Source: Lachnospiraceae bacterium UBA4364 (GTDB lineage: Bacteria; Bacillota; Clostridia; Lachnospirales; Lachnospiraceae). Taken from it: a stretch of 64,000 nucleotides of DNA. Below are positions 15,457 through 41,969 of the stretch, in pieces. The translations under genes were made by a program, and so were the position numbers. How positions within the stretch are numbered: the first letter of the stretch is position 1; each line of letters begins with the position of its first letter. The notes beneath the pieces were generated by a model. It saw only the letters and a list, made by a program, of their open reading frames with translations, did no database searches and was not told the origin of the DNA. The stretch is taken from the NCBI GenBank assembly GCA_002393955.1, contig DGSK01000003.1:18516-82515 (forward strand). The letters are read 5' to 3'.

Positions 15457-15476
15457 TCATTAACTAAAACTTCCCA
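15457..15476. repeat. Left arm of the inverted repeat flanking the MarR gene (ATTAACTAAAACTTCCCATA)
   Basis: Its reverse complement matches 16073-16094 apart from a 4-nt insertion. It is related to the copA-upstream palindrome. Confidence 0.6.
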
Positions 15477-15605
15477 TATCGTGTAGTCTTGACGAAGGGC
15501 ATCACCGTCAGTCAGGCTGCCGATGTGAGGGAGTCGGTGGTATACAACAAGTGGAAGGTTCAAGTCCGGCAGGTTATGAACAGCCGGATGAGTGAGGGAC
15601 AGAGT

Positions 15606-16058: not shown

Positions 16059-16072
16059 CCGGCACGCGGTGT

Positions 16073-16094
16073 GGGAAGTTTTAGTCAGTTAATT
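16073..16094. repeat. Right arm of the inverted repeat flanking the MarR gene (TGGGAAGTTTTAGTCAGTTAAT)
   Basis: See the left arm at 15457-15476. Confidence 0.6.
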
Positions 16095-16130
16095 ATCTAA
16101 CCATATTGACCGAAATAAATACTACAGGAG

Positions 16131-16161
16131 TATCCCTGTAGTGTTTTTTTTATCTGATATA
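16131..16161 (+). terminator. Rho-independent terminator at the end of the fab cluster
   Basis: ACTACAGG-agtat-CCCTGTAGT followed by T8. Confidence 0.75.
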
Positions 16162-16208
16162 ATGAAACCATAGTGGCAAATATCAAATGGTAATAGTGGG
16201 GTGTTTAC

Positions 16209-19200: not shown

Positions 19201-19292
19201 GAAATGCCGAAAAAAATAATAGCAATATCGATACGGCATCTCTCTACAGGACGGCGAAGACTTTCCTGCAGACTATCGGAGAGACGCAGTGA
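16209..19292 (+). CDS. Large acidic flagellar-locus protein (1027 aa) with a FliK-C-terminal-like domain
   Basis: A long uninterrupted ORF directly upstream of flagellin, with no hydrophobic segments. The C-terminal ~110 aa (IPMEINGELTAVTVKIL...GNIKAHFEIS...IFRALSARLSARFAENGLNVKDFSF) follow the beta-beta-helix pattern of hook-length-control C-domains. The assignment is tentative. Confidence 0.45.
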   Translation: MNGNEIGSIIQHNRNGNNYNADALTHTLNNVNKIKDHEAAAKSGAAGFTLNIGDGMGQGMMPLTDADKKSAASALRQVTSGVPEDVMKDRMIVMSNTMSDEAYKKAAENGYSLSGMDPEEAVTIADEIKITMAKAGVVIKGYNDDLTTEQLEAVTGSAAMANEISESLHAAGVPATESNVKDMKELVDMADSLKAPSHEVKNYLVENELPPTIQNIYYAEHSVSEASSSMRNPGGAGNPAADRMDSAIDSSETIKKQIEKIIKSAGFEADTENYDIARQMVHDGLVLDEKSFTAMHDLQDMDFPIGRERILKSGADAIASGLSAMQADPVHEGSLIERAVKAADVVETAASDARYVRELVDRDMLLNVKNLAAVTEKLPAIAEADKVSVSSALTGIDNELNESVQDESQVLMAAADNSGSDAKYITAYRRMEEARLSMTVEANLSILRMGVDIDITELSDLVDRLKLAEAEINKKKFGTDDSAAASERASIYNETMQTVSELPKLPVSVIGSMVIADKEEALFRADYGINNVTLEDFSARGREQRNRYELAGEAYESLQTEVRADLGDSIQKAFAHADSLLNELGIEASEGNLRAARVLGYNHMEISSENIALVDEACSVVDNIIEKMNPAATLDMIRNGINPMKLSMKELEQRLDALETEDTGERYSEYLVRMQDRGLITDEEAESFVGIYRMMHQTELKDGAAIGALLSQGREISFTNILSAIRSAHRAGMDISVDDGFGGLESNIDKNIEAQIETAFRQVQAESMSDNIKDAADASAQIYRELVESEVIATAEHVRGLKRLRSDRGEVFDDIRKIAASTGDDWLVTSGYKRVLDNFDNEDSAKSVYNEIMDLMGAVVRQSFASEGEDIDVRQYSLTMAQLSVAGSLSRNESYEIPMEINGELTAVTVKILHGSGKTPAADISLKTEKYGNIKAHFEISDDESGLTGFAVSDKEGSDVIFRALSARLSARFAENGLNVKDFSFAVSARTDVNLSGRNAEKNNSNIDTASLYRTAKTFLQTIGETQ

Positions 19293-19411
19293 CAGTAAAA
19301 GACGCAGCAGACCAAACAACTACCGAAGCAGTTATAAAACGGAAATCTTAGGATCGTCCGTGTAAGCCGCGGAACATCAGAATTCTGAGTGATCCCACAT
19401 AAGGAGGAAGC

Positions 19412-20551
19412 ATGAGAATAAATTACAATGCAAGCGCAATGCACACCAATAAGGCACTTAACCGTACCGATAATCTGATGACGCAGTCCATGCAGCGTCT
19501 TTCTTCGGGATTAAAGATCAATTATGCCAAGGATAATCCTGCAGGGCTTGCGATAGCAAACCGTATGAATGCGCAGATAGAAGGTCTGGGCGTAGGCTCA
19601 AGGAATACCAACGACGGCATATCGGTAGTGGAAACTGCAGACGGAGCCCTTTCGGAAGTTACTTCCATAATCCAGAGAATGAATGAGCTTGCTGTTCAGG
19701 CAGCTACGGATACCAAGACCGACTACGACAGAGGGATCATCCAGGCTGAGATAGAGCAGCTTCAGAAGGAGATCACACGTATCGCAAAGGATACGGAATT
19801 CAACGGACAGTCCCTTTTGGACGGTACATTTGATCTGAAGGGATATTCGGATAATCCGGATGTGAAGGTTGACTATTACACGGAGGATGTGGATCCCGGA
19901 AAATATACGGTAGATATAGGTGCCCTTCTCAATGCGGATGGTACGGTGAACCTGGGAGCCCTGGGACCGGAGTTCCCTAATGTGGGTACACTCAGCGGAA
20001 CTGCCGAGCAGGTATTCGATGTTAACGGTAATCTGGCAGAAACAAGGTATAAGATACTCGGCACCGGCGGATTCGAGCTTAACCTTACGGCTGCCGCAGG
20101 GGCTTCGGGAACGGTAGAACTGGATATTACCGGTATCGGTGCCATGAAGATACAGACCGGCGCAAACGAGGGCAACGAGCTGGCGATTCAGATCAGGACA
20201 GTCTCATTGGAAAAAATGGGTATCCCTGACGATCCCAAAAATCCCTTAAGAATGGATGTTTCCACTCAGGCGGGTGCATCAAATGCAATAGATGCCCTGT
20301 CAGGTGCCCTGGAATATATCAACAGTGTGCGGTCAAAGCTTGGTGCGTACCAGAACCGTCTGGAGCACAATGAGGCAAGTGTTAAGGTTTCAGAGGAAAA
20401 CATGACTTCATCCTACTCCAGGATAATGGATGTGGATATGGCTGAGGAGATGACAGAGTATACTACCCAGCAGGTACTCACCCAGGCCGGCATTTCCATG
20501 CTTGCCCAGGCTAACGAGAGACCTCAGCAGGTACTGCAGCTGCTGCAGTAA
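19412..20551 (+). CDS. fliC: Flagellin
   Basis: The N-terminus is MRINYNASAMHTNKALNRTDNLMTQSMQRLSSGLKINYAKDNPAGLAIANRM. The C-terminus is LGAYQNRLEH...MDVDMAEEMTEYTTQQVLTQAGISMLAQAN. A strong RBS AAGGAGGAAG precedes the start. Confidence 0.95.
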   Translation: MRINYNASAMHTNKALNRTDNLMTQSMQRLSSGLKINYAKDNPAGLAIANRMNAQIEGLGVGSRNTNDGISVVETADGALSEVTSIIQRMNELAVQAATDTKTDYDRGIIQAEIEQLQKEITRIAKDTEFNGQSLLDGTFDLKGYSDNPDVKVDYYTEDVDPGKYTVDIGALLNADGTVNLGALGPEFPNVGTLSGTAEQVFDVNGNLAETRYKILGTGGFELNLTAAAGASGTVELDITGIGAMKIQTGANEGNELAIQIRTVSLEKMGIPDDPKNPLRMDVSTQAGASNAIDALSGALEYINSVRSKLGAYQNRLEHNEASVKVSEENMTSSYSRIMDVDMAEEMTEYTTQQVLTQAGISMLAQANERPQQVLQLLQ

Positions 20552-20577
20552 CTATAACTGAACGAGCGGAACTACAT

Positions 20578-20780
20578 GGATGCTGCATCGAATTTATTTC
20601 TGAACGGTCACGATGCGGTTTTAGCTCCGGGGAAATCCATTGCCTACTGTGCCTTGGTGTCCGGTACAGGGCTGCGAGACAGCGGTTTTTGCTGGCTCGC
20701 ATGTGACGGACACGTAGGCACAGTTGGCAATTAGTTTCACGGGGCGTTGCATCGGTTCAGAAATAAATCGTGCAGCATCC
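20578..20780 (+). other. ~200-nt rod-like imperfect hairpin between fliC and fliS (structured RNA or palindromic element)
   Basis: Nested complementary segments read directly: GGATGCTGCA/TGCAGCATCC; ATTTATTTCTGAAC/GTTCAGAAATAAAT; CGATGC/GCATCG; TTGCCTACTGTGCC/GGCACAGTTGGCAA; GTGTCCG/CGGACAC; and an apical GCGAG-CAGC-ggttttt-GCTG-CTCGC. Confidence 0.7.
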
Positions 20781-20817
20781 GAGTGCACAGACTAATACAT
20801 TACAAGGAGGATCATAC

Positions 20818-21309
20818 ATGACAGGCGAGAAGAAACAGGAATTCATGCTGCGTATCAGCGAAGCCAACAGGAGCCGTATGGTTGTCATTCTCTACGATAT
20901 GTTTCTTACCTATGTAAAGGAGGCGGAGAACAGCCGCATGGGTGAAGTCTTTACCCTTGAAGACATGAATACATACAAGACCGGCATAAGGAATGCCAAG
21001 GCTGTACTCAGGGAACTGATAGATTCACTTAATATGGAATATGACCTGGCAAGACGCACTTATCAGATATACCGTTTCGTTGAAAGGGAACTGATAATGG
21101 CGGATATCCGCAGGGATCCCACAGGACTGGGAGAAGCTGAGAAAATAATGAAGAGCTTAAGGGATGCCTATGCAAGTGCTACGGAAGAGGATAGCGCAGA
21201 GCCTATTATGAAGAATACAGACACAATATACGCCGGCATGACCTATTCCAGAGGAAAGCTTGCTACAGACAGTGTGGCAAGCGGTACGAACCGGGGATTT
21301 TTGGCATAA
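20818..21309 (+). CDS. fliS: Flagellar export chaperone FliS (with a C-terminal extension)
   Basis: The start was moved to ATG 20818 after AAGGAGG. RMVVILYDMFLTYVKEA...NAKAVLRELIDSLN...YQIYRFVERELIMADIRRD...AEKIMKSLRDAY follows the four-helix FliS pattern. It sits directly after flagellin. Confidence 0.7.
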   Translation: MTGEKKQEFMLRISEANRSRMVVILYDMFLTYVKEAENSRMGEVFTLEDMNTYKTGIRNAKAVLRELIDSLNMEYDLARRTYQIYRFVERELIMADIRRDPTGLGEAEKIMKSLRDAYASATEEDSAEPIMKNTDTIYAGMTYSRGKLATDSVASGTNRGFLA

Positions 21310-21372
21310 AATAAAACCGGGTACGATATGGGTACGCTATGTAGTTGAAGAAGACGGATCGGTTTACAGAAA

Positions 21373-21416
21373 GAACACGGATATTGGATATTGTTTCCTA
21401 TATCCGTGTTTTTCTT
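21373..21416 (+). terminator. Rho-independent terminator after fliS
   Basis: ACACGGATAT-(15-nt loop)-ATATCCGTGT followed by TTTTTC. Confidence 0.7.
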
Positions 21417-21610
21417 TGTGTAGTATTAATAAAATTTTCGAATTGTTTTCTTTTTTTTTGGTAAAACCCACAAAAATAGTATAAAATTGTCATAATGGTA
21501 CGCTAAAGTCGGTTTTTATTCGGTTTTGGGTACGATAGGTTGTTTATACTGTAGCAGAAGCAAAAAGTTATTTTGGGCTGCAAAAGGTGAAGCGGAAGGA
21601 GGAAGCTTAC

Positions 21611-22438
21611 ATGAAGATTTTTAGTCCGAGCAGTGAACAGATTGAGGAAATGCGTGGCGTCTGGGATGACAGCCTGATCGAACAGGTGAACAGCGGTGAA
21701 TATCCTGCCCACGTATTTGTGGACGAAGAGGAAAATGAGCTGGTTGCATTATATGTGCTCAGTGTTAACTCTCAGATCGTCAATGTCGTAAATTATTATT
21801 GCAATTCGAAGTATGAGGATATGTTCGGAACACATGCTATGGTATTTGATGATATTTTAGATGTGGCTCAGAGCACAGGGATGAATTCGATAGTCGTGCC
21901 TGTTGAGGCATTTGGTTATAAAGCACTTGCGGAGTATCTTGAGGATTTCGGTTTTACTAAGGAAAAAATTTCTTCAAAGCTTTCTGCAACTGTTGACAAG
22001 GTGGTTTCCTCCATTTACAAGGGAAAAGTACCTGCCGGTGTTAAATCGCTTTCAGAAGCAACAAAGGACGAGAAAAAGGCTATACATGAAATAGCAGGTG
22101 CCGAGCTTGAAGCAAGCATCAGCATCAATACCATGGATATAGACTTTGATGGTGAGTGCAGCTCTGTTCTTGTGAAAAACGGTGAGGTCGCAGGTTTTGC
22201 CCTCTGTTCATATAAGGGCGATTACGTATATCTTGATTATCTTTATATCGCGAAAAAGAGTCAGGCAGCAGGCATGGAAATGCTGGGTGTATCGGCAAAC
22301 AAGGTTCTCGAAAAATATGGAAAGAAGATAAAGTTCGAGGCATTACTTGCAACCGATGAATCTGAAAAGCTTGCTAAGAAGCTGATACCGGGCGGAAAGT
22401 ATACGAATTTCACCCTTTATCGTTGGGATATAGCATAA
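21611..22438 (+). CDS. Hypothetical 275-aa protein, weakly GNAT-fold-like (two halves), co-operonic with the giant ORF
   Basis: ATG 21611 follows GGAAGGAGGAAG. The segment YLDYLYIAKKSQAAGMEMLGVSANKVLEKYG loosely resembles GNAT motif A, but the canonical R/Q-x-x-G-x-G/A is degenerate. The stop lies 18 nt before the next start. Confidence 0.35.
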   Translation: MKIFSPSSEQIEEMRGVWDDSLIEQVNSGEYPAHVFVDEEENELVALYVLSVNSQIVNVVNYYCNSKYEDMFGTHAMVFDDILDVAQSTGMNSIVVPVEAFGYKALAEYLEDFGFTKEKISSKLSATVDKVVSSIYKGKVPAGVKSLSEATKDEKKAIHEIAGAELEASISINTMDIDFDGECSSVLVKNGEVAGFALCSYKGDYVYLDYLYIAKKSQAAGMEMLGVSANKVLEKYGKKIKFEALLATDESEKLAKKLIPGGKYTNFTLYRWDIA

Positions 22439-22456
22439 AAACGGAGGACATATAAT

Positions 22457-25400
22457 ATGGATTTCAAAGAGAAAGAAAAAAAGGAAAATAAAGCGATCAA
22501 CGCCCAGAATGAGCAGAAAAACGAGCAGCAGAATGTAGCTAATCAGCCTATTCAGCAGAATCCTGTAAATCAGGCTCAGCCTATCCAGCAGCAGAATAAT
22601 AAAGATGCTAAAAAAGAGAAGGATAAGAAGAAAAGCAAGAAGAAGGATGCCAAGGCTGTTGAACGGGCAGAGGAAGAGGTAATCCCTGAGGTTAAAGCGG
22701 ATTCCATGGAGGCTGCTGAGGGTGAATACATGGACTTCCTGCTTAAGCAGAAAGGCTTCCAGAATACCAGCTATAAAGACAAGAAGTTCAGTGTGAGCAA
22801 CAAGCCCGATCTTCTCCGCGTCAATAGCTTTATGAATAATCAGCTTCATGAAGAAAATTATCTGGATGTAAGCTGGTCTCTTACCAAGAAGGAATTACAG
22901 ATGATCCGGGATAAGAGGAACAAGTGCTGGTTCTTTGCGGATTCAAGAGCTAATAAGCTTGAGAAGAAACTTAAGAAGAATCGAAATTTCCAGATTGCAG
23001 CAGGTATGTTTGCACAGCACAGAGAGATTCTTGAAACTGCAGCAAAGGAGCTTAAGAGCGGCAAGGAGTCAGAGTTTGAAAAGTTTGGTATGCGTTCATC
23101 AAAGGAAATGTATGCCGAAATGACAGAGCTTCTTAAGCAGACATATGTTAAGAGCCAGGGAAAGGCAGCTGTAAAGGGATTCTTTGGCTGGAAGCCTGAT
23201 AGTGAAGTCAATATGGCATATGTTGCAAAGCAGGCTACAATGAGTAATATTTTCTGTGAAAATAAGCTCAAGGAATTTGCAAATCTCAATATTGTAGCAA
23301 ACCGTGAAATAGATAAGACAGTCCAGGCCAGGATGCTGTCTTACTGTAAGCTCGGTTATAACAGCAACATGGTCCTGTATGAGTGCATGGAGAATAAAGG
23401 ACACAAGATGACTGCCAAGCTTAAGGAAGATGCAAAGAGAAGAGCAAGCCAATTTGAGATGATGCAGTTCTTTGTGGAAAATGCGCATAAGCCTGAATTT
23501 TTTGAGGCAGGAATAGTTACATGGGGTCAGATGTTCAAGGAGGCCAGTGAAGCGGCTGACTATGCAGGCGCCGGCAATATGGCTAAGGGCGAAAAGAATG
23601 CATATTATAACGCTCTCCTTAGCGGTATTCTTACCAACAAGATCCGTCAGGCTAAGATGAAGCTTAACGGCTGGTATGAGCTTAAGGATAAGACTGCAGA
23701 GGATGCCCAGATAGAAAATGCAGCTAAACAGGGCGAGAAGAAGGAAGAGAAGAAAGAAGAGAAAAAAGAAGAGAAGAACGTAGAAGGTAAGCAGGAAGAG
23801 AAGAAAGAAGAAAAGAAAGAAGAGGGCAAGAAGGACGAAAAGAAAGCCGAGAAAAAGAAGAAAGGGAAAGAGAAGCCCGATCCTTTCGGAAGAACCAAGG
23901 AACAGATAGCTTTCGATGCTGAGCTGTCTAGGGCTCATAATAAGCTTATTGGATATGGTGAGGAAAGACAGAAGCAGCAGGATGCGATGAAGAAGCAGGA
24001 GACATCCGTATGGAAAGCTGTATGGGGCTGCTGCAATACAATGAGCGAAAGCGTGGACGATGACACAAAGCTTGCTGATGAAAGATGGATAAGGGGTGTT
24101 ACTCACAATGATATCGATCTTATGAAGGATCGTCTTGATGATATAAATAATACTGTTACTAATTTTGTATTCTCAGATGAGATGATGACTGATCCTGAAA
24201 GTTATCTCAGGGGCAACCTGAAGGAATACCTGAAGCTTCGCGGATATTTCACAGCATACGAGAAGTTAAGTGACTTAAGCATGTTTGGAGAGACTAAAAA
24301 GTACTCTGCAATAGATAATTATTTCTCTCAGGCAAGAGGAAAGTACCTGTGGGTATTTGGCGACCAGCAGACCAGGGCGATCGACAAGAACCGTATTGCA
24401 CCCTGGAAGGCTTTCCAGGCATTTGCCGACAGGCTCCTTAAGCAGAAAGGGATCAATCCTGACAATACCGGCTTGGTAAGCGGTTATGCTACATTTGATC
24501 AGTGGAAAGATGCCCAGTTCAAGAATGAAGATGAAAAGAAGAAAGAGCTGGATAAGGTAGTAAAAACTATCAAGGAAAAGAATGCACTGATCCTGAAGGA
24601 TCAGTTCAGGATGAATTATGCCTATGTTTTCGGCTTTGAGGATGAAAAGGGCAATATTGATATAGGCTTTGAGAGGAAGATCAGAGAGGCATTCGGCAAG
24701 GATGTTACAAGCGTTGATGATACCCTGAAAACTCTCAGGGAGATGAAGCCTAATCTTCAGGGCGCTATCGAAAATATGGCGGGAATGCTTGAGTACATGA
24801 CCAAATATCCGGTTGAGGAGTTCCCGGCTATGTACAAGGGGCTGGATGTTTTTGACAGCAAGAAGGAAACCGCAGCATCCCTGATGAGGAAGCTTGAGGT
24901 TTGGAAGCTGAGATACGGCTCATATACAACCTTCATAGATAAGTATGACGCTGGTGACAAAAATGCGAAAAAGCTTGTTGAAGAAGGTATAGCAGAAAAG
25001 ATTGACTGCCAGGAGCTGCTTAAGAGAGCTGAGGAAACCGCAATTGCTGAAAATGCAGTAAAGGGCGGTGACTATAAGACCTTCCGCGGTGTTAACCGTA
25101 TGAGGGAGTATGTAGATACATTTAAGGAATATGGCTATCATAAGGACTATGCTACCGCAACGAAATTTGTGGCAGACTTTAAGTTCACTAAAGAATGGGA
25201 TAAGCCGGATTTTGTATATGCAAATATCGAGACATACTCACGCCTGATACTCAGTATCGATACGATAGAGAATTTTGGCAAAGAGGTTGTTGAAGAATCC
25301 ACACCTGCATACAAGAATAAGCTTTTATCGACTATTGAATTCTTTAAGGCTTACAGACGGCACATGAACCATCAGCTGGTACAGAAGTATAAGATCAATC

Positions 25401-28400
25401 CCGAACAGATGGCTTATGCTACGGATGAGATGGTTGAGAAGGCCAAGGCTTATCTGGCACCTGATCAGAAGAAGGAGCCTGAGCATAAGCGCTTTAAGAA
25501 TATCAGAAATGCATTTGGTTTAAAGTGCTGGCAGGAAGATCATGCTGAGGATGGCTTTAAGATGTCTGACTATGTATATGACAAGAAGCTCATAGAGTTC
25601 GGACGTCAGGAGCTTCAGCGTAAGGACTATGAGGCCAAGATACTTGAGGGCAAGGCAGAGTATATAGATTACCTGCGCCTGCTCGTAATCAAGACCAGAC
25701 AGCTTAATGCTAAGAATCTTCCGGAGAAGCAGAAGGAAGTATTCAAGGGTCAGATTAAGAACCTTGCATACAGGGCGTATACATGCATGGCAAACGAAAA
25801 GTTCAGCAGGCCCAGAAATGCCATTAAGTCGAGTGACAATGAAATAACCAATACGGTACTCATGGACTATATGTACAGGGATGAGCTTAAAGATGATGTG
25901 GACTATCTTGGAATCCTTGAAAAGGCATATAAGAGCGAGCTGACGAACAAGTGGCAGGGTGATGTTGAGAGACAGAATAAGCAGCAGGAATCCGCTACGA
26001 ATTATCATAATAGCCTTGGCATGAAACGCGAAAGAGAAAGCTCTAAGTTTGTAGACCGCAAGGAGGCAGAGCTTATAAGCATTGATGCGGATCTCAGGGC
26101 AAAGCTTGTAAAAGAACTGGAAAAAGAAATTGAAAAGCCTGAGAACGCTGAAGCAAAGGCAAAGTTTGAAGAAATAATTGCGGACATTAAGGCGGATAAT
26201 GATCATGGTCGGTTTGCAATATTTGTAATGTGCAATACTAAGGACAAGTTTATTAAAAAGTATGGCGCAGGACTGTCAGAAAAGACAAAGGATCTGATCA
26301 GAAAAGTACATGTTTCCTCGTATTATGCAGGTCAGCTCCAGTTTGATCCGGATGAAGTCAGGTCTGCGGATCAGAAGATTGAAGATCTGTGCAAGGCATT
26401 TTCGACTTTTGAGCAGATTGATAAAGTCAGAGAAATGGAAAAGAGCGGAAAAGACAAGACTGACTTTGAGGAGTATAACAGGCAGAAAGAAAAGCTTACA
26501 TTCATGTCTGATGTTGAAGATGATATGAACATGGCTAATAGACAGATTTCCGAGTCATCGCTTCCTACATATTACAAGCTGTGTAATGATGCGGATATTC
26601 TCAGTAACTTTGTAAACGAGCATTCATTTGTAAATGCTGAAGCAGAGGAATCCTTAAGGAAGCGTATTGCATCACTGGAGGAAGTAAATGCGGTAGCAAA
26701 CAGAAAGGAGAGGCTTGCTGTTTCAAAGTCAGCTAAGGATCTTGTCTTTGCACTGTCGAGAAAGGGACAGTTTAAGGATGGAAACAGCCTGAGCTTTGCA
26801 ATTGATAATCTCCTTCGTTTCAGAGGTGTTACACTGACACAGTCGACCATCGAGAACTGGAAGCCCGGCGTGGGTAATCTGCAGAAGCTTGATGATAAGC
26901 GTATGGCTGACCTGGATAAGATGGCTGAGAGACTGGCAAAGGGTGATGTTGAGATGGGCGACTATGCAGGAATGATCACCAAAGTAATGCCTGATGTGGT
27001 TATCCGTCAGAAGAAATTCGCCAGCAATAAGCTCACAGATGAGAATATCAACAACTTTAAGACCACTGTCATTGATGCACTGACAAAGGATAAGACACCC
27101 GTTGCCCTTAAGATGAACGGAAAGTATTATACTGTCACAAGTTATGATGAAAAGACCGGAGAAGTTAAGGTTGAATATCAGAATGAGGCGGCAAGGTCAA
27201 TAAAGCTTGAAGCTCTTTTCAACGAGGCTTCAATGAAAGCACCTGAGAATGCAACAGCTGAGGAGAAAAAGAAATACAACACCGGCATAGAGGTGACATG
27301 GCTTAAGGATATCCAGTTTGCTGAGGATACGATTGTGCACCTTAAGGATTATGAGGGCGGCAAAGATGGAGTGGGCGCTCATAAGAAGGGTGATATAGAA
27401 GAAAACTATAAGATATTCAGTGAAGAAGAAAAGGCAAAGTACCGTAAACTGGATCCGTCAAGCAATAAAATGTTTGCCTTGGAGGATCTTGTGCACAACA
27501 GCTTATTTGATCCGATATCCACAAAGGTAATAAAGGATGCTTCAGGTAATTTCATATACTTTGACAACGATGGCAAGGCTGTCATAAAGGACGATAAGCT
27601 TGCGAAGTATGGAAAGAATATACCTATGGACGCACTTTGCATAAAGGAACAGGGCCAGGATGATGTTGAGAGTGACATTACAATATATCCTGAAACCTAT
27701 GCCGAGACTACAAAGGTTAAGAGCAAAGATATAAGCAGGCTGAATGAGTATCTCTACAAGGACAATAAGTCAAAGGTTATTTATGAAGCTTCTGCATTAG
27801 CGCTTCAGGCACAGAGACAGTCTGTACCTCAGATTATTGAGAATCTGAAGCTGGAAGCTGTACAGAGAACCTTTATAGCTGCTCAGATGGAGGTAGACCG
27901 CTTAAAGGATGATAAGAAGAAGATCAGCGATACAGAGGGCTTTGATCTGACCTGCAATATGGTAAATACAGGTAAGGAGTATGATAAATACGAATCCACA
28001 AGGAAGCAGATGGATGAGTCTGCCAAGAATGCCAAGAATTCAAGAAAGCCTGCAATTACCGAAATTCCCAAGGTTAAACAGGAAGCTCTTGACTATGGCG
28101 AGAAATTCAAAATTGCATTAGAGGAAGGAAAAATTGAATATGCAGCGACCCTTTATTCCCTTGCTTTAAACAGGATCAATTCCCTTAATCAGGTGATGGG
28201 CTTCAAGGAAAGATGGAATTTCTCAGACCGTATTTCAAAGAAGATCATGGATAAGCTCTACAAGCAGAAATATGACGTGGTACGCAAAAATTACATTGAT
28301 GCAGCAGATAAGCTTGGTGAATATGATGCAAAGATGGCAAAAATCGACAAAAAGGTCGGCAAGCTGGAAGCTAATAATGTCAAAGGTGTAGCATACAAGT

Positions 28401-30946
28401 ATACTGTTCAGGATCTTCCGGAAATATTCAGAGTTACTGATGATCCGGCTATCATCAAAGCGCTGCTCAAGAGCAAGGTGCCTCTGCTGTCCGAGTCCAG
28501 GAAGGAACTTGAAAACCGTCTTGCTGCAATAAAGAAGATCAACGGAAGCAAGACGAGAGATGAATTCAGCGCAGATGTAAAATCTACGGTAGAGACAAGG
28601 GTAGAAGCTACCAAGCAGGCAAGTTCAAAGAACAGGAAGCTTCTGAATACTGCATCAGAGACAGACTTAAAGATCTGTGTTGAGATCAATAATATAAATA
28701 ATAGTCTGGATGCATTGAAAAAAGAAGTGTCCGTTAAGGAGGCTATTCTCAACGGTAAAGATAAGAAAGCTAAAAAGACCGTAGACAAGAAAGCTCTTGC
28801 AAAGCAGAAAAAACAGATTGAAGAACTGACAAAAGAACGTGATGCTAAGAGGGAAGAGCGGAAGGGACTGAATGAGGAGCTGGCAAATATTCCTGAAAAT
28901 GAAAAGAAAAACGTTATTGAATATAAGCTGCAGTATGATTTAAGCAAGCTGAAGAAGAAGCATGTGGCTAAACTGAATGGAGTGGCAGACACTGCAGGAA
29001 CGATGCTCATGCTGGTTACCGGAAAAGAAGTGGATTCAGAGCTGCTTTCCGCATACAGACCTGCTATGGATATCACAAAGGAAATGGATGATGATTGTAT
29101 CAAGTATCGTCAGGCGCTTTCAAACGGAAGATTAAACAGTCTGGGTGATTATGCAGATCTTACAAACAGCATACTTAATAATACCTGCCTGCAGCAGTAT
29201 GAATTTGATGTAAGGGAGCTCAGGGACAAGAAACGCGGAAATGAGGCAAAGATGCAGCTGCTTGCAAAGGTGAAGCAGTACATTACCCTTTCAATGCAGA
29301 ACTCCAAATCACCTATAGCTATCCAGAATCCCGGCGGAGGGTACAAGCTGATCGTCGGCTTTACAGACAAAGGTGATGTAATGGAAGACAAGGTGAAGTT
29401 TGTGGACATTGGTGAGGGTGGTCATCTCTACGAGTCGGATATGTACCTGGAAGACCTTACTGCCGGAATTAATATTAAGGGGACAGGTGACACCATATCA
29501 ATGTTTGCTTTCAACGATATAGAAAAGGGTAAAAACCTCCTTCCCTCTAACGGTAGTATCAAATATGATGCGAAGACCGGAGAAATCGCAAAAGTATCAG
29601 GCAATGAGGAAGGCAGTGCTCACCGCAGCCATACAGTGGAATTCTGCAACACTCAGGTCGAGGGATTAAAGATCAGGTCATTCTTCCCTAACACCATAAA
29701 AGGTGATAAGGGTGCAGAAGAGAGCCTTGAGAAGGTACCTGTTTCCGATCCTGAGGCAATAGAGGCACTTCTTATCAACAGGAAGGAAACTCCTGAGGAG
29801 AAGCGTGCGGATGAAGCAGCTCTTATGAGCAGCATCAGGCATTTTGCAGAAGGTGGAAGCAAGATGGAGATAAGAGATCTTCCTGATAACTACCGCCTGA
29901 CAGGCAATCTCGAAAAACTGAATTACCTTATCTCTCATCACTCAGACGCCTTTTCTGCTGAAGCGATCAAGGAGCTTAGGGATAGAAGGGATGCTATTGA
30001 AGAAATCAATATGCTTAAGTCCCAGTATAAGTACACGACTACCAAGACAAAGGAGAAACAGCTTGAGGGAGACATACATGAGGTAAGGCTTAACATAAAG
30101 TATGACGGATCAAATTCGAAAACCGCCGGAAGCTGGTCTGATGCCATGAGTTTCCTGCTCTCCTCAAGAGGACTTAAAGTGCCTGCCGAGCTGCTTTCAA
30201 AATGCAACCCGGATGTCAACTATCATATAAAGGTTAACACCAAGGACAGGTTTGAAAATGATCCTAAGAGAGACATGAAGAACTTAGAGAATCACGTAGA
30301 TATACTGGCAAGGGTAATGCAGGATGTAAGCCTGGAAGTTGCTGAATATGACATTGACAAGAATGTGGAAGAAGAGGATACTATCAGAGAAATCAAGAGT
30401 TATATTCTTGGGAGGATGCAGGAAGATGGAAGCTCCGTTGTACTGAAAATGCCTGAAGATGCCGAAATGTACCGTAATATCGTTGGTGTAAGAGGGGATT
30501 CACTGATAATCAGATCATCTGTTGGAATGGATTATGAAGATGTATATCAGGGCAATACTTACACGGACGAGTATATTGAAAAGACATTCGGCGGACAGTC
30601 TCTGGAGTATGAGATGCCTATAAGCGAACTGGCAGGAAAAAAGTTCTCATTAATGTCACTGTCAAAATCTTATGATGAAAAGAGTATGACAAATAAGCGC
30701 GGCGCTATGGTAACGCTGTCAAAAGCAATGTGCAAGCAGGATAAGTATAATGACGGTGCGATAGGTCAGATGAGAATGCATCACAAAGATAGTGCTCCTC
30801 AGGAACTCCAGATAGGTGGAAAAAAGACCGGTATCAAAGTAAAGACTGAAAGCTGGATATCCAGGCAGTACATAGTAGATCATTTTGATGACGCTGATGA
30901 TATGATGGATGTCGAAAAAAAGAAAGCAAAAAAGAGTGAGAAATAA
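22457..30946 (+). CDS. Giant (2829 aa) Lys/Glu-rich hydrophilic protein of unknown function
   Basis: An uninterrupted 8.5-kb ORF with RBS ACGGAGGA. The N-terminus is Q/N/K-rich and looks disordered. By eye I find no signal peptide, no TM segment, no Walker A and no HExxH. Confidence 0.85.
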   Translation: MDFKEKEKKENKAINAQNEQKNEQQNVANQPIQQNPVNQAQPIQQQNNKDAKKEKDKKKSKKKDAKAVERAEEEVIPEVKADSMEAAEGEYMDFLLKQKGFQNTSYKDKKFSVSNKPDLLRVNSFMNNQLHEENYLDVSWSLTKKELQMIRDKRNKCWFFADSRANKLEKKLKKNRNFQIAAGMFAQHREILETAAKELKSGKESEFEKFGMRSSKEMYAEMTELLKQTYVKSQGKAAVKGFFGWKPDSEVNMAYVAKQATMSNIFCENKLKEFANLNIVANREIDKTVQARMLSYCKLGYNSNMVLYECMENKGHKMTAKLKEDAKRRASQFEMMQFFVENAHKPEFFEAGIVTWGQMFKEASEAADYAGAGNMAKGEKNAYYNALLSGILTNKIRQAKMKLNGWYELKDKTAEDAQIENAAKQGEKKEEKKEEKKEEKNVEGKQEEKKEEKKEEGKKDEKKAEKKKKGKEKPDPFGRTKEQIAFDAELSRAHNKLIGYGEERQKQQDAMKKQETSVWKAVWGCCNTMSESVDDDTKLADERWIRGVTHNDIDLMKDRLDDINNTVTNFVFSDEMMTDPESYLRGNLKEYLKLRGYFTAYEKLSDLSMFGETKKYSAIDNYFSQARGKYLWVFGDQQTRAIDKNRIAPWKAFQAFADRLLKQKGINPDNTGLVSGYATFDQWKDAQFKNEDEKKKELDKVVKTIKEKNALILKDQFRMNYAYVFGFEDEKGNIDIGFERKIREAFGKDVTSVDDTLKTLREMKPNLQGAIENMAGMLEYMTKYPVEEFPAMYKGLDVFDSKKETAASLMRKLEVWKLRYGSYTTFIDKYDAGDKNAKKLVEEGIAEKIDCQELLKRAEETAIAENAVKGGDYKTFRGVNRMREYVDTFKEYGYHKDYATATKFVADFKFTKEWDKPDFVYANIETYSRLILSIDTIENFGKEVVEESTPAYKNKLLSTIEFFKAYRRHMNHQLVQKYKINPEQMAYATDEMVEKAKAYLAPDQKKEPEHKRFKNIRNAFGLKCWQEDHAEDGFKMSDYVYDKKLIEFGRQELQRKDYEAKILEGKAEYIDYLRLLVIKTRQLNAKNLPEKQKEVFKGQIKNLAYRAYTCMANEKFSRPRNAIKSSDNEITNTVLMDYMYRDELKDDVDYLGILEKAYKSELTNKWQGDVERQNKQQESATNYHNSLGMKRERESSKFVDRKEAELISIDADLRAKLVKELEKEIEKPENAEAKAKFEEIIADIKADNDHGRFAIFVMCNTKDKFIKKYGAGLSEKTKDLIRKVHVSSYYAGQLQFDPDEVRSADQKIEDLCKAFSTFEQIDKVREMEKSGKDKTDFEEYNRQKEKLTFMSDVEDDMNMANRQISESSLPTYYKLCNDADILSNFVNEHSFVNAEAEESLRKRIASLEEVNAVANRKERLAVSKSAKDLVFALSRKGQFKDGNSLSFAIDNLLRFRGVTLTQSTIENWKPGVGNLQKLDDKRMADLDKMAERLAKGDVEMGDYAGMITKVMPDVVIRQKKFASNKLTDENINNFKTTVIDALTKDKTPVALKMNGKYYTVTSYDEKTGEVKVEYQNEAARSIKLEALFNEASMKAPENATAEEKKKYNTGIEVTWLKDIQFAEDTIVHLKDYEGGKDGVGAHKKGDIEENYKIFSEEEKAKYRKLDPSSNKMFALEDLVHNSLFDPISTKVIKDASGNFIYFDNDGKAVIKDDKLAKYGKNIPMDALCIKEQGQDDVESDITIYPETYAETTKVKSKDISRLNEYLYKDNKSKVIYEASALALQAQRQSVPQIIENLKLEAVQRTFIAAQMEVDRLKDDKKKISDTEGFDLTCNMVNTGKEYDKYESTRKQMDESAKNAKNSRKPAITEIPKVKQEALDYGEKFKIALEEGKIEYAATLYSLALNRINSLNQVMGFKERWNFSDRISKKIMDKLYKQKYDVVRKNYIDAADKLGEYDAKMAKIDKKVGKLEANNVKGVAYKYTVQDLPEIFRVTDDPAIIKALLKSKVPLLSESRKELENRLAAIKKINGSKTRDEFSADVKSTVETRVEATKQASSKNRKLLNTASETDLKICVEINNINNSLDALKKEVSVKEAILNGKDKKAKKTVDKKALAKQKKQIEELTKERDAKREERKGLNEELANIPENEKKNVIEYKLQYDLSKLKKKHVAKLNGVADTAGTMLMLVTGKEVDSELLSAYRPAMDITKEMDDDCIKYRQALSNGRLNSLGDYADLTNSILNNTCLQQYEFDVRELRDKKRGNEAKMQLLAKVKQYITLSMQNSKSPIAIQNPGGGYKLIVGFTDKGDVMEDKVKFVDIGEGGHLYESDMYLEDLTAGINIKGTGDTISMFAFNDIEKGKNLLPSNGSIKYDAKTGEIAKVSGNEEGSAHRSHTVEFCNTQVEGLKIRSFFPNTIKGDKGAEESLEKVPVSDPEAIEALLINRKETPEEKRADEAALMSSIRHFAEGGSKMEIRDLPDNYRLTGNLEKLNYLISHHSDAFSAEAIKELRDRRDAIEEINMLKSQYKYTTTKTKEKQLEGDIHEVRLNIKYDGSNSKTAGSWSDAMSFLLSSRGLKVPAELLSKCNPDVNYHIKVNTKDRFENDPKRDMKNLENHVDILARVMQDVSLEVAEYDIDKNVEEEDTIREIKSYILGRMQEDGSSVVLKMPEDAEMYRNIVGVRGDSLIIRSSVGMDYEDVYQGNTYTDEYIEKTFGGQSLEYEMPISELAGKKFSLMSLSKSYDEKSMTNKRGAMVTLSKAMCKQDKYNDGAIGQMRMHHKDSAPQELQIGGKKTGIKVKTESWISRQYIVDHFDDADDMMDVEKKKAKKSEK
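23733..23877 (+). repeat. ~145-nt near-pure polypurine (GAA/GAG/AAG) tract encoding an (E/K)-repeat
   Basis: The DNA reads gagaagaaggaagagaagaaagaagagaaaaaagaagagaag... and encodes GEKKEEKKEEKKEEKNVEGKQEEKKEEKKEEGKKDEKKAEKKKKGKEK. Confidence 0.9.
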
Positions 30947-30962
30947 GAAGTAACCATCAAGA

Positions 30963-30998
30963 GGGCGGTCTCGCCGAGAGGGGAGACCGTCTTTTTTA
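30963..30998 (+). terminator. Rho-independent terminator after the giant ORF
   Basis: GGCGGTCTC-(loop)-GAGACCGTC followed by T6. Confidence 0.75.
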
Positions 30999-31066
30999 TA
31001 TTTATTATTTATTGTAAAATAGTTGTATAATTCATTTAGTATCGGCTTTGCAGCGGGGCACTTATC

Positions 31067-35980: not shown

Positions 35981-35983
35981 CAT

Positions 35984-36754: not shown

Positions 36755-36791
36755 TACCATTTATGTATGATATCGGGAGGCATAAACGTAT

Positions 36792-40688: not shown

Positions 40689-40734
40689 AGAAGCAGCGGG
40701 ATCCCGCTGTGTGCGTGAGGGTGCAGGGATAGAT

Positions 40735-41937: not shown

Positions 41938-41969
41938 TGGCGGTTTGCTAAGACAGAGATTAATAGAAA

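What the first reader, a model, noticed from the sequence alone, without database searches (positions are those of the whole stretch)
21611..30946. Two-gene operon in the flagellar neighbourhood: a degenerate GNAT-like protein and a 2829-aa ORFan
An 8.5-kb ORF follows a 275-aa ORF after an 18-nt gap. Both lie downstream of fliC-fliS and are bounded by clear terminators.
- The giant product is extremely Lys/Glu-rich.
- It begins with a Q/N/K-rich low-complexity N-terminus (NAQNEQKNEQQNVANQPIQQNPVNQAQPIQQQNN).
- It contains an (E/K) repeat.
- By eye it has no signal peptide, TM helix, Walker A, HExxH or other catalytic signature.
- Three short beta-looking segments may be repeats of one small module: VALKMNGKYYTVTSYDEKTGEVKVEY, IAIQNPGGGYKLIVGFTDKGDVMEDKVKF and VVLKMPEDAEMYRNIVGVRGDSLIIRS.

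The disordered N-terminus, the lack of a Sec signal and the location next to a flagellar chaperone gene suggest a hypothesis. The protein may be a non-flagellin substrate of the flagellar type III export apparatus, or a giant cytoskeletal or surface protein, with the upstream protein acting as modifier or chaperone. I cannot assign it to any described family.
Basis: partly seen in the sequence, partly recalled or inferred. Interest (0 to 1): 0.7.

Follow-up and report, generated by a model that had tools for sequence, protein, structure and literature searches.

The report
Giant orphan protein with partner gene
An uncultured sheep-rumen Lachnospiraceae carries a real, conserved two-gene unit encoding a small acidic protein and a 325-kDa protein of no described family that holds three copies of what looks like a switched-off cysteine-protease domain; its function, and any link to the neighbouring flagellar genes, is unproven.

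Summary
A 275-aa ORF (21611-22438) and a 2829-aa ORF (22457-30946) form a terminator-bounded pair downstream of flagellin and fliS.

- **Real gene:** dN/dS is 0.34 against a 99%-identical strain. A 39%-identical paralogue stays colinear and open over more than 2855 aa.
- **Orphan:** Pfam, NCBIfam, PHROGs, PADLOC, PDB, phages and plasmids give nothing. An exhaustive HMMER scan of 1.84 billion representatives found three clusters.
- **Repeats:** The three "beta segments" are the ends of three true repeats of a 260-380-aa module. That module is clearly homologous (63.5 bits) to the N-domain of one unrelated 804-aa protein, P0004.
- **Dead protease lead:** P0004 keeps a Gln/Cys/His/Asp set that aligns in register with genuine C39 peptidases. 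The giant's modules have lost Cys and His. The papain/C39 fold is only weakly supported.
- **Partner:** Sister strains carry a second, diverged cassette (274 aa plus giant) in tandem, so the small gene travels with the giant. Its GNAT likeness is marginal.
- **Flagellar link:** This rests on adjacency within one lineage only.

Best reading: a non-enzymatic, multivalent binding scaffold with a dedicated partner. Export route is unknown. It is a new family with moderate interest.

The parts
21375..21417 (+). Intrinsic terminator after fliS. Stem ACACGGATAT / ATATCCGTGT, 15-nt loop, then TTTTCTTT. It is the upstream boundary of the cassette.
   Evidence: Read from the sequence. The simple scanner did not list it.
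21458..21487 (+). Sigma-70-like promoter candidate: TTGGTA, 18 nt, TAAAAT (within TATAAAAT). An equivalent TTGTAA / TATACAAT pair stands upstream of the paralogous cassette.
   Evidence: This is a consensus match plus conservation between paralogous upstream regions. Function is inferred.
21518..21536 (+). Conserved block ATTCGGwTTTGGGTACGmT in the predicted 5' leader, invariant between the upstream regions of both paralogous cassettes. It overlaps one of four GGTACGMTA copies: 21320, 21331, 21497 and 21529.
   Evidence: alignment A8. One search found 4 copies in the window, all in this intergenic region, against 0.46 expected. There is no Rfam hit and no significant RNA fold.
21611..22438 (+). 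Partner gene: 275 aa, acidic (pI 4.7), no TM segment. It has a marginal GNAT signature at residues 177-220 and always lies immediately upstream of a giant gene.
22457..30946 (+). Giant gene: 2829 aa, 324.8 kDa, pI 8.1.
   Evidence: dN/dS is 0.34. The paralogue is colinear over the whole length.
22457..22741 (+). N-terminal low-complexity region (residues 1-95). The first 9 residues, M[DE]FKEKEKK, are invariant between paralogues. The Q/N/K-rich part that follows varies in length and sequence.
23717..23890 (+). E/K-rich linker (residues 421-478), encoded by a 12-nt tandem array. Its length differs between strains: an 8-aa indel, EKKEEKNV, against L001.
23954..24556 (+). The stretch best conserved between paralogues (residues ~500-700, 56-61% identity against 39% overall). 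It contains WKAVWGxCNT, DERWIRGV and EYLKLRGYFxAYEKLxDLS. No known family matches.
26552..27340 (+). Module 1 (residues ~1366-1628): helical leader (SLPTYYKL...LRKRIASLEEVN) plus core. Ser stands at the Cys column and Lys/Tyr at the His column.
28409..29539 (+). Module 2 (residues ~1985-2361): leader (DLPEIFRVTDDPAII...RLAAIKKING), a long K-rich helical insert, then the core. Both catalytic columns are degenerate (Val at the Cys column, Gly/Tyr at the His column).
29870..30688 (+). Module 3 (residues ~2472-2744): leader plus core. The Cys column holds Ser in the window type and Lys in the paralogue. The His column holds Met/Tyr.
30689..30943 (+). C-terminal tail (residues 2745-2829), basic at its end. 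It is poorly conserved in the paralogue, which is longer.
30964..30998 (+). Intrinsic terminator after the giant: GGCGGTCTC...GAGACCGTC followed by TTTTTT.
   Evidence: Read from the sequence. It is conserved in L002.
16209..21309 (+). Flagellar neighbours, given as context and not shown to be part of the unit: a DUF6240 protein with a weak FliK-like C-terminus (16209-19292), flagellin (19412-20551) and FliS (20818-21309).

Best explanation
The cassette encodes a lineage-restricted pair: a small acidic partner protein and a soluble 325-kDa protein.

**Architecture**
- The giant consists of long, mostly helical, K/E-rich regions and three copies of one 260-380-aa module.
- Each module has a conserved helical leader and an alpha+beta core.
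- The core is homologous to the N-terminal domain of P0004. That domain retains a Gln-x5-Cys ... His ... Asp arrangement like a C39 (papain-fold) peptidase.
- In all three modules of the giant, and in its paralogue, the Cys and His positions are replaced by varied residues.

**Proposed mechanism**
- The modules most likely act as catalytically dead peptide- or protein-binding domains.
- The model for this is the degenerate C39-like domain of HlyB-type transporters, which binds substrate instead of cleaving it.
- I therefore think the giant is a non-enzymatic, multivalent tether or scaffold offering up to three binding sites on long spacers.
- The upstream protein is its specific partner, either a chaperone or solubility factor or a degenerate acyl-transferase-like modifier.
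- The pair is transcribed from its own housekeeping-type promoter.

**Shown**
- The gene is real.
- The repeat structure is real.
- The module is homologous to P0004.
- The candidate catalytic residues are lost.
- The partner gene is co-duplicated with the giant.

**Inferred**
- The papain/C39 fold.
- The binding function.
- The role of the partner.
- Localisation: cytoplasmic by default, with non-Sec export possible.
For: **Real, selected gene**
- 99% nucleotide identity to L001, with 32 synonymous and 44 non-synonymous differences; dN/dS 0.34.
- The paralogue g2 in L018 is 39% identical, colinear over about 2740 aligned residues, and open for at least 2855 codons.

**Repeats**
- z = 7.3-9.0 between the three modules.
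- Shared motifs run through all copies: G...A...LL..RG......RP...DYA...SPV.LK..G.Y..VG...EY.

**Homology to P0004**
- phmmer E = 5.5e-4 against 1.84 billion proteins.
- An HMM built from six giant modules, without P0004, scores P0004 at 63.5 bits over 200 positions. The maximum in 3000 shuffles is 7.2 bits.

**C39 lead**
- An HMM of ten genuine C39 domains aligns P0004 in two colinear pieces, with Gln/Cys and His/Asp in register. The score is 3.8 bits and 2 of 300 shuffles reach it.
- The best (non-significant) hhalign segment between the module family and C39 is the His strand in register.
- The highest-TM PDB match of the module 3 model is the ComA C39 peptidase domain 5xe8_A (TM 0.56 on the target, probability 0.25).

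**Dead sites**
- The Cys column holds S/S/V in the window and S/I/K in the paralogue. The His column holds K-Y/G-Y/M.
- Only 9 Cys and 3 His are invariant between paralogues, and none lies at those columns.

**No other catalytic or membrane signature**.

**Partner**
- Full-length 44% identity between the two partner paralogues. Each lies directly upstream of its own giant.

**Precedent**
- Non-catalytic C39-like domains with Cys replaced are described in PMC8277102.
Against: - The fold assignment is weak. The AlphaFold models are low confidence: module 3 has pLDDT 52 and pTM 0.59, and the P0004 core has pLDDT 42.
- Foldseek gave no match with E <= 0.001.
- hhalign of the module family against C39 gave probability 0.6%.
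- Pfam and PDB sequence searches of P0004 and of the modules are empty.
- The spacing between the Cys and His columns is 105-130 residues, much longer than the roughly 80 of C39 domains.
- No ligand is known and nothing shows binding.
- About 1900 residues outside the modules are unexplained. The stretch best conserved between paralogues (residues 500-700) is not in a module and could carry an unrecognised activity.
- Ser at the Cys column of modules 1 and 3 could in principle be a nucleophile, although it is Lys in the paralogue's module 3.
Confidence: 0.35

Rival explanations
1. The giant is a non-flagellar cargo of the flagellar type III export apparatus, recognised through its disordered N-terminus, and the 275-aa acidic protein is its export chaperone. 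It is compatible with the module interpretation, because it concerns the export route and not the fold.
For: - The giant lies immediately downstream of fliC-fliS in every context where upstream DNA is visible.
- There is no Sec signal, TM segment or cell-wall anchor.
- The N-terminus is low-complexity, with an invariant M[DE]FKEKEKK start in both paralogues.
- The partner is small, acidic (pI 4.7) and co-inherited.
- Non-flagellar proteins exported by the flagellar apparatus through N-terminal signals are documented in Campylobacter jejuni (PMC2764114 and PMC5223770, abstracts only).
Against: - All linked contexts come from one narrow lineage, so adjacency counts as a single observation.
- The cassette has its own terminator-isolated transcription unit and a sigma-70-like promoter.
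- No sigma-28 consensus rises above background, although none does for flagellin either.
- There is no similarity to flagellin, FliS or the DUF6240 protein.
- The partner has no FliS, FlgN or FliT signature.
- The remote relative P0004 is not near flagellar genes.
- Between the window and L001 a recombination breakpoint separates fliC (86.7% identity) from fliS-cassette-HK (98.4%). The cassette therefore does not co-evolve with flagellin.
Confidence: 0.15
2. The pair is a pro-toxin or effector plus its activating acyltransferase, analogous to hlyC-hlyA or rtxC-rtxA. The GNAT-like partner would acylate lysines of the giant, which would then be released and act on other cells.
For: - The gene order is small gene first, then giant gene, 18 nt apart.
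- There is a marginal GNAT hit in the partner.
- The giant is very Lys-rich.
- The tandem, fast-diverging paralogous cassette with presence/absence variation between strains resembles effector or toxin loci.
Against: - The GNAT signal is not reproduced in the paralogue or by profile methods.
- The Q/RxxGxG/A acyl-CoA loop is not conserved between the partner paralogues.
- There are no RTX nonapeptides and no hydrophobic segment for membrane insertion, and Pfam finds no toxin domain above its cut-off.
- No HlyC-family match was found.
- There is no adjacent dedicated exporter. The HlyD/FtsX/ABC genes at 39177-42686 lie 8 kb away, beyond a two-component system.
- tblastn finds no similarity to anything in 72,556 plasmids or 50,697 phages.
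Confidence: 0.1
3. The cassette belongs to a mobile element or an anti-phage or anti-plasmid system that happened to insert next to fliS.
For: - The second cassette is present in some strains and absent in others.
- P0004 lies beside a TraG/VirB4-like ATPase.
- GC is slightly lower than in the neighbours.
Against: - There are no PADLOC or PHROG hits and no phage, plasmid or viral-contig relatives.
- No integrase, transposase or repeat boundary is visible around 21.3-31.1 kb.
- GC3 (0.476 and 0.424) falls within or just below the range of neighbouring genes (0.44-0.57), and the low GC is explained by GC2, that is by amino-acid composition.
- No NTPase or nuclease domain was found.
Confidence: 0.05
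4. The ORF is not a functional gene. It would be a chance ORF, a decaying pseudogene or an assembly artefact.
For: One relative (L002) has an in-frame TAG at the position matching residue ~1007 in the paralogous giant.
Against: - The 8.5-kb open frame recurs in independent assemblies.
- dN/dS is 0.34.
- The paralogue at 39% identity remains open and colinear, and the same gene is intact in L018.
- Both genes have strong RBSs.
Confidence: 0.02

Closest known systems
C39 bacteriocin-processing peptidase domains, and the degenerate C39-like domain (CLD) of HlyB-type ABC transporters
   Same: - The module's relative P0004 has Gln-x5-Cys at the start of a helix (KQDTSLGCWSCAFSMLLKGRG). This compares with the C39 motif Q...C[GA]xA[CA]LxM[IL]...[YF]G.
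- P0004 then has a His strand followed by Asp (YHWTTIVGI...VVDS). This compares with the C39 motif HFVVV...DP.
- All four residues align in register with genuine C39 domains.
- As in the HlyB CLD, the giant's copies have lost the Cys (CLD precedent: PMC8277102).
- The best structural match by TM-score is the ComA C39 domain.
   Different: - No significant sequence, profile or structure match was obtained.
- The modules are not fused to an ABC transporter.
- They occur three times inside a 325-kDa soluble protein.
- They carry a 50-residue helical leader and a 105-130-residue Cys-to-His spacing with a helical insert.
- His is lost as well as Cys.
Non-flagellar substrates of the flagellar type III export apparatus, such as the Campylobacter jejuni Cia, FlaC and FspA proteins
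   Same: There is no Sec signal, the N-terminus is disordered, and the gene sits next to flagellar genes. The export principle is described in PMC2764114 and PMC5223770.
   Different: - Those cargos are small, tens of kDa (my own knowledge). This protein is 325 kDa.
- No secretion data exist for it.
- No flagellar-type promoter was recognised.
- Flagellar linkage is seen in only one lineage.
Acyltransferase-protoxin pairs (hlyC-hlyA, rtxC-rtxA of MARTX toxins)
   Same: A small gene sits immediately upstream of a very large, Lys-rich, signal-less protein. The small protein has a possibly GNAT-related fold. That HlyC-type acyltransferases are GNAT-like is my own knowledge.
   Different: - There are no RTX repeats, no HlyC-family signature and no adjacent type I secretion genes.
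- The host is Gram-positive.
- The GNAT signal is marginal and not conserved.
Giant signal-less effectors carrying a papain-fold cysteine-protease motif (lymphostatin LifA/Efa1/ToxB; large clostridial toxins). This comparison comes from my own knowledge.
   Same: Size class of about 300 kDa, no Sec signal, and presence of a clan-CA-like module.
   Different: - tblastn against 72,556 plasmids found no sequence similarity.
- Pfam finds no glycosyltransferase domain.
- The protease-like modules here are triplicated and inactive.
P0004: an 804-aa hypothetical protein from metagenomes (JGI 3300020112 and Logan SRR1221442)
   Same: It is the only detectable relative outside the family. The whole module, leader plus core, is homologous at 63.5 bits.
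   Different: - It has a single module with Cys, His and Asp intact.
- The rest of the protein is unrelated, including a P/E/A/K-rich linker.
- It lies in a cluster of unknown genes beside a TraG/VirB4-like ATPase and has no 275-aa partner.

Membership tests
GNAT acetyltransferase (Pfam Acetyltransf_1), tested on the 275-aa protein | Profile match above the curated threshold | tested here: inconclusive
   The window protein scores 22.5 bits against a cut-off of 20.7, E 1.4e-4, with no single stretch passing. The 44%-identical paralogue has no hit. NCBIfam gives none.
GNAT acetyltransferase, tested on the 275-aa protein | Conserved acyl-CoA pyrophosphate-binding loop Q/R-x-x-G-x-G/A after strand beta-4 | tested here: not met
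   The window has Q-A-A-G-M-E. The paralogue has G-T-A-V-M-A in the same columns of alignment A1. The motif definition comes from my own knowledge.
GNAT acetyltransferase, tested on the 275-aa protein | Detectable profile similarity to bona fide GNATs, or to solved GNAT structures | tested here: not met
   hhalign of A1 against the genuine GNAT at window 43850-44329 (Acetyltransf_1 9e-21) gives probability 0.3%. The PDB profile search gave no GNAT.
GNAT acetyltransferase, tested on the 275-aa protein | GNAT fold | not tested
C39 / clan CA papain-fold cysteine peptidase, tested on the modules of the giant | Catalytic Cys at the N-terminus of a helix | tested here: not met
   The column aligned with Cys137 of P0004 holds Ser (module 1), Val (module 2) and Ser (module 3) in the window. 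In the paralogue it holds Ser, Ile and Lys.
C39 / clan CA peptidase, tested on the modules | Catalytic His on a beta-strand, followed by Asp/Asn | tested here: not met
   The His242 column of P0004 holds Lys/Tyr, Gly/Tyr and Met in modules 1-3. Asp is retained only in module 2 (FVDIG).
C39 / clan CA peptidase, tested on the modules and P0004 | Significant sequence or profile similarity to the family | tested here: inconclusive
   Pfam gives none. hhalign against ten real C39 domains gives probability 0.6%. The C39 HMM scores P0004 at 3.8 bits, and 2 of 300 shuffles reach that, but Gln, Cys, His and Asp are all in register.
C39 / clan CA peptidase, tested on the modules | Papain-like alpha+beta fold | tested here: inconclusive
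   The AF2 model of module 3 has pLDDT 52 and pTM 0.59. Foldseek found no match with E <= 0.001. The ComA C39 domain gives TM 0.56 (on the target) and probability 0.25. The P0004 model is unusable.
HlyB-type C39-like domain (CLD) | Degenerate active site on a C39 fold, placed at the N-terminus of an ABC exporter, where it binds the substrate | tested here: not met
   A degenerate site is present. However, the domain is internal, triplicated and not fused to a transporter. Binding cannot be tested here.
Flagellar type III export substrate | FlhA/FliI-dependent secretion | not testable with these tools
   This needs culture and mutants.
Flagellar type III export substrate | Membership of the flagellar regulon (late-class promoter) | tested here: inconclusive
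   No TAAA-N14-17-GCCGATAT match rises above background upstream of the cassette. The same is true upstream of flagellin. A sigma-70-like promoter is conserved upstream of both paralogous cassettes.
Flagellar type III export substrate | Conserved linkage with flagellar genes across independent lineages | tested here: inconclusive
   Linkage is seen in the window, L001, L007 and L018, which all belong to one clade. Only one species among 185,579 GTDB representatives matched the 275-aa partner probe.
Flagellin or axial-protein family | Flagellin N- and C-terminal helical domains | tested here: not met
   There is no Pfam hit and no BLAST similarity to the window's flagellin.
RTX / MARTX toxin | GGxGxD nonapeptide repeats, an HlyC-type activator and type I secretion genes | tested here: not met
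   The regex finds none in the giant or its paralogue. There is no Pfam hit. The neighbours are a two-component system.
Gram-positive surface adhesin | Sec signal peptide and an LPXTG, SLH or cell-wall-binding anchor | tested here: not met
   The N-terminus is MDFKEKEKKEN. The maximum 19-residue hydropathy is 1.02. There is no LPXTG motif and no Pfam anchor domain.
Phage tape-measure or other phage giant protein | Similarity to phage protein families or phage genomes | tested here: not met
   PHROGs gives none. tblastn against 50,697 phage records gives none. The viral contig scan gives none.

The most novel reading that the evidence does not exclude
The giant would be a 325-kDa non-flagellar cargo of the flagellar type III export apparatus of a Gram-positive gut commensal, escorted by its own co-evolving acidic chaperone. 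Once outside the cell, its three inactivated protease-like modules would bind peptides of other microbes or of the host. The tandem, rapidly diverging second cassette would reflect diversifying selection on that interaction.
Probability: 0.1. Interest if true: 0.85.

Novelty: categorically new. Interest (0 to 1): 0.45.

Why it matters
The label 'categorically new' applies to the protein family and its architecture. No curated library (Pfam, NCBIfam, PHROGs, PADLOC, PDB) recognises any part of either protein, and an exhaustive scan of 1.84 billion representatives finds only three clusters. It does not mean that a new mechanism has been shown.

If the module is confirmed as an inactivated C39/papain-fold domain, this would be the first case I know of where such domains are used as repeated internal building blocks of a giant soluble protein. 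Until now they are known as a single N-terminal appendage of an exporter. P0004 would then define an undescribed active peptidase family.

If the flagellar-export idea were confirmed, it would extend flagellum-dependent secretion of non-flagellar cargo to Clostridia and to a cargo of unprecedented size.

The tandem, diverged, strain-variable second cassette gives a natural handle for comparative and selection analyses. The host comes from the sheep rumen datasets of PMC4158751. According to its abstract and title, that study analysed gene expression in the same microbiome, so expression may be checked without a culture.

As it stands, the finding is a well-delimited orphan with a partial structural lead, and not a solved function.

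Tried and rejected
**Homology searches**
1. Whole-protein and segment searches in the 5.8-billion word-indexed database returned only P0001 (98% identity) and P0002, the N-terminal part of the paralogue.
   - That index is clearly lossy for this K/E-rich query. The second search missed P0001.
   - The profile search with A4 returned nothing at all. Its negatives therefore carry little weight.
   - The exhaustive representative search is the reliable negative.
2. Pfam in roughly 400-aa windows at E <= 1 gave only sub-threshold noise: SRI 18.9 bits, Tox-REase-3 12.9 bits.
3. PDB sequence and profile searches were all empty. They covered the giant, the family profile A9, the module profile A4, P0004 and the partner profile A1.

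**Structure prediction**
4. Two AlphaFold jobs both gave low confidence, because only window sequences and a few P-proteins were accepted as alignment rows. The Foldseek results are therefore only hints.
5. hhalign of the module family against ten real C39 domains fetched from plasmids was not significant.

**Partner protein**
6. hhalign of the partner against a genuine GNAT of the same genome was negative. A test for internal duplication of the partner was also negative.

**Regulatory signals**
7. Sigma-28 promoter scans were at background level everywhere, including upstream of flagellin, so they are uninformative.
8. Rfam and RNA folding of the leader found nothing.

**Origin and wider distribution**
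9. The horizontal-transfer test by GC3 gave no clear signal.
10. Scans of GTDB genomes, JGI metagenomes and viral contigs found only the same organism or nothing.

**Readings rejected**
- Surface adhesin: no signal or anchor.
- Pore-forming or RTX toxin: no hydrophobic or RTX elements.
- Tape-measure or other phage protein: no phage relatives.
- Giant flagellin: no flagellin domains.
- Pseudogene: the ORF is conserved and under selection.
Full report
**1. Checking the observation**

The ORF table shows a 283-codon frame (GTG 21587; the RBS-preceded ATG at 21611 gives 275 aa) ending at 22438, and a 2829-codon frame at 22457-30946. Both are on the + strand and 18 nt apart. Upstream lie a 1027-aa DUF6240 protein with a weak FliK-like C-terminus, a flagellin (Flagellin_N 2.4e-45, Flagellin_C 7e-26) and FliS (3.5e-16).

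A perfect 10-bp hairpin with a T-run follows fliS at 21375-21417. A GC-rich hairpin with a T-run follows the giant at 30964-30998.

The giant has K 13.4% and E 9.8%, a mass of 324.8 kDa and pI 8.1. Its Q/N/K-rich N-terminus is as described. The E/K repeat is a 12-nt tandem DNA array at 23735-23875. No 19-residue window is hydrophobic enough for a TM helix or signal peptide; the maximum is 1.02. Walker A, HExxH, LPXTG and RTX motifs are all absent.

**2. Where the window comes from**

The rest of the window is an ordinary Firmicute chromosome. It holds a fab operon, a MarR regulator, the flagellin locus, then a hybrid histidine kinase, a response regulator, an HD-GYP-type protein, a MacB-like exporter, murC, dnaB/dnaI-like genes, prs, pth and mfd.

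The only genome among 185,579 GTDB species representatives that matched the 275-aa partner probe is 'uncultured Lachnospiraceae bacterium SRR873603_bin.3'. The only JGI metagenome hit is AUXO010518865. Both accessions belong to the sheep rumen study PMC4158751.

**3. It is a real gene**
- Against the near-identical strain L001, the giant differs at 32 synonymous and 44 non-synonymous positions, giving dN/dS 0.34. There is also one 8-aa indel inside the E/K array.
- A 20.5-kb contig, L018, shows the order FliS, 275-aa gene, a 2827-aa giant (92% identical to the window's), a 274-aa paralogue of the small gene, and a second giant of at least 2855 aa.
- That second giant is 39% identical to the window protein, colinear over about 2740 aligned residues, and contains no stop.
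- In another assembly (L002) the second giant carries one in-frame TAG at the position of residue ~1007. Since L018 is intact, this is strain-specific or an error.
- The window and L001 have only one cassette, followed directly by the histidine kinase.

**4. It is an orphan**
- Pfam, NCBIfam, PHROGs and PADLOC give nothing for the giant, its paralogue or its segments.
- PDB sequence and profile searches are empty.
- tblastn against 50,697 phage and 72,556 plasmid records, and a viral-contig scan, are empty.
- HMMER of the C-terminal 1200 residues against 1.84 billion cluster representatives found three proteins:
  - P0001, the near-identical orthologue from a sister strain.
  - P0003, a 148-aa fragment of the paralogue type.
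  - P0004, an 804-aa protein at E = 5.5e-4.

**5. The repeats**

Stretches of 260 residues around them align pairwise with z = 7.3-9.0.

Each module has two parts:
- A conserved helical leader. It reads SLPTYYKLCNDADIL...LRKRIASLEEVN in module 1, DLPEIFRVTDDPAII...LENRLAAIKKING in module 2 and DLPDNYRLTGNLEKL...LRDRRDAIEEIN in module 3.
- A core of about 200 residues with shared motifs G...A...LL..RG......RP, DYA.L, SPV.LK..G.Y..VG and a terminal hydrophobic strand.

Approximate limits are residues 1366-1628, 1985-2361 (with a long K-rich insert) and 2472-2744.

**6. What the module is related to**

An HMM built from six modules of the giant family, without P0004, scores P0004 at 63.5 bits over 200 positions. 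The best of 3000 shuffles reaches 7.2 bits. This homology is solid.

P0004 reads KQDTSLGCWSCAFSMLLKGRG ... NGYHWTTIVGISDDNSTFYVVDS. From memory this resembles the Gln-x5-Cys helix and the His strand/Asp of C39 bacteriocin-processing peptidases, so I tested the resemblance.
- I fetched ten genuine, diverse C39 domains from annotated plasmids.
- Their HMM aligns P0004 in two colinear pieces with Gln, Cys, His and Asp all in register. The score is only 3.8 bits, and 2 of 300 shuffles reach it.
- hhalign of the module family against C39 is not significant (probability 0.6%). Its single reported segment is the His strand in register.
- An AlphaFold model of module 3 plus the tail is low confidence (pLDDT 52, pTM 0.59; the core blocks reach 60-77). 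Foldseek against the PDB gives no significant hit. The hit with the highest TM-score is the ComA C39 peptidase domain (TM 0.56 on the target, probability 0.25).
- A model of the P0004 core was unusable.

Three weak lines of evidence point the same way. I rate the papain/C39-like fold at roughly 60%, and it is not established.

**7. The modules are catalytically dead if that fold is right**

The column of P0004 Cys137 holds Ser, Val and Ser in the window, and Ser, Ile and Lys in the paralogue. The His242 column holds Lys/Tyr, Gly/Tyr and Met. Between the two paralogous giants only 9 Cys and 3 His are invariant, and none sits at those columns.

Degenerate C39-like domains that have lost the Cys and bind rather than cleave their substrate are known from HlyB-type exporters (PMC8277102). 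This is the functional analogy I adopt. The membership test for that family fails, because the modules are not part of a transporter, are internal and are triplicated.

**8. The partner**
- The 275-aa protein is acidic (pI 4.7) and soluble.
- Its paralogue is 44% identical over the full length and again lies directly upstream of a giant. The two genes are therefore inherited and duplicated as a unit, which argues for a specific functional pairing. This is an inference.
- The GNAT idea rests on a 22.5-bit Pfam hit against a cut-off of 20.7.
- That hit is absent in the paralogue.
- It is also absent in PDB profile searches and in hhalign against a real GNAT of the same genome.
- The acyl-CoA loop is not conserved.
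- 'Degenerate GNAT-like' remains possible but unproven, and I cannot say whether the partner is a chaperone or a modifier.

**9. Regulation and the flagellar link**

Upstream of both paralogous cassettes there is a conserved sigma-70-like pair: TTGGTA or TTGTAA, then 17-18 nt, then TATAAAAT or TATACAAT. There is also an invariant leader block, ATTCGGwTTTGGGTACGmT. No Rfam family or significant fold matches the leader.

A sigma-28 consensus scan is at background level both for the cassette and for flagellin itself, so it decides nothing.

The giant shows no similarity to flagellin, FliS or the DUF6240 protein. Between the window and L001, identity is 98.4% from fliS through the cassette into the kinase gene. 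It is only 86.7% for flagellin and 90.7% for MarR-DUF6240. The cassette therefore shares its recent history with fliS and the downstream genes and not with flagellin.

P0004 lies among unknown genes beside a TraG/VirB4-like ATPase.

Flagellar export thus remains a hypothesis based on adjacency in a single lineage, on the lack of a Sec signal, and on a low-complexity N-terminus whose first nine residues are invariant between paralogues.

**10. Verdict**

The feature is real and well delimited, and it belongs to no described family. My committed reading, at confidence 0.35, is a non-enzymatic multivalent binding scaffold built from three inactivated papain/C39-like modules on long helical spacers, working with a co-evolving acidic partner.

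The main rival concerns the route rather than the fold: export through the flagellar apparatus (0.15). An acylated toxin or effector (0.10) and a mobile or defence element (0.05) are less likely. An artefact is excluded.

About 1900 residues remain unexplained, including the segment best conserved between paralogues (residues 500-700).

Noticed in passing
L018 1-19437; L002 1-8057; L019: Sister strains carry a second, diverged copy of the whole cassette (274-aa gene plus a giant of at least 2855 aa, 39% identical) directly downstream of the first. The window and L001 have a single cassette followed by the hybrid histidine kinase. This is a strain-level presence/absence polymorphism.
   Followed up: yes
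L002 4901-4903: A single in-frame TAG splits the paralogous giant into 972-aa and >=1049-aa ORFs in one assembly. The same gene is uninterrupted in L018. It could be a strain-specific nonsense mutation, a sequencing error or a read-through site.
   Followed up: partly
window 21320-21339 and 21497-21537: The motif GGTACGMTA occurs four times in the window, against 0.46 expected and 0 of 100 shuffles. All four copies lie in the fliS-to-cassette intergenic region: two adjacent copies before the fliS terminator and two in the cassette's leader. This may be an operator for an unknown regulator.
   Followed up: partly
window 15461-20552 compared with 20818-33049 (against L001): There is a sharp change in strain-to-strain identity. 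MarR-DUF6240 is 90.7% identical and flagellin 86.7%, but everything from fliS onward is 98.4%. This suggests recombination or diversifying selection at the flagellin and DUF6240 genes.
   Followed up: partly
window 23735-23875: The E/K-rich linker is encoded by about 10 copies of a 12-nt tandem repeat. It differs by an 8-codon indel between the window and L001, so it is a contingency-like length polymorphism inside the giant gene.
   Followed up: partly
window 16209-19292: A 1027-aa DUF6240 protein (4.8e-98) with a weak FliK hook-length-control C-terminal match (E 0.0064) lies directly upstream of flagellin. The full-text search found no paper that mentions DUF6240.
   Followed up: partly
L003 1891-14305 (JGI 3300020112): P0004 is the only remote relative of the module and has an apparently intact Gln/Cys/His/Asp set. 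It sits in a cluster of unannotated genes (749, 352 and 844 aa) next to a 1229-aa TraG/VirB4/DUF87-type ATPase. It may be an undescribed peptidase family on a conjugative element.
   Followed up: partly
window 82-1932 and 3950-4909: The low-GC (38-40%) start of the window holds a 616-aa ORF with a weak RAMP-superfamily match (6.4e-6). On the opposite strand there is a YhgA-like transposase (1.4e-4). No CRISPR array was found by the tandem-repeat scan.
   Followed up: no
window 59463-61295: A 610-aa protein has an N-terminal zinc ribbon and long imperfect tandem repeats (36-, 90- and 96-nt units at 59611-60094) that encode a repetitive region.
   Followed up: no
window 31067-38942: Directly downstream of the cassette lie a 1637-aa hybrid histidine kinase with Reg_prop/Y_Y_Y sensor repeats, a response regulator and an HD-GYP-type (HD_5) protein. 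This is a possible c-di-GMP/motility signalling unit, and no link to the cassette was tested.
   Followed up: no
tool behaviour: The word-indexed protein search missed P0001 (98% identical) when queried with residues 481-1640, and returned nothing for a profile that contained the modules. Its negatives for this K/E-rich protein are unreliable.
   Followed up: yes
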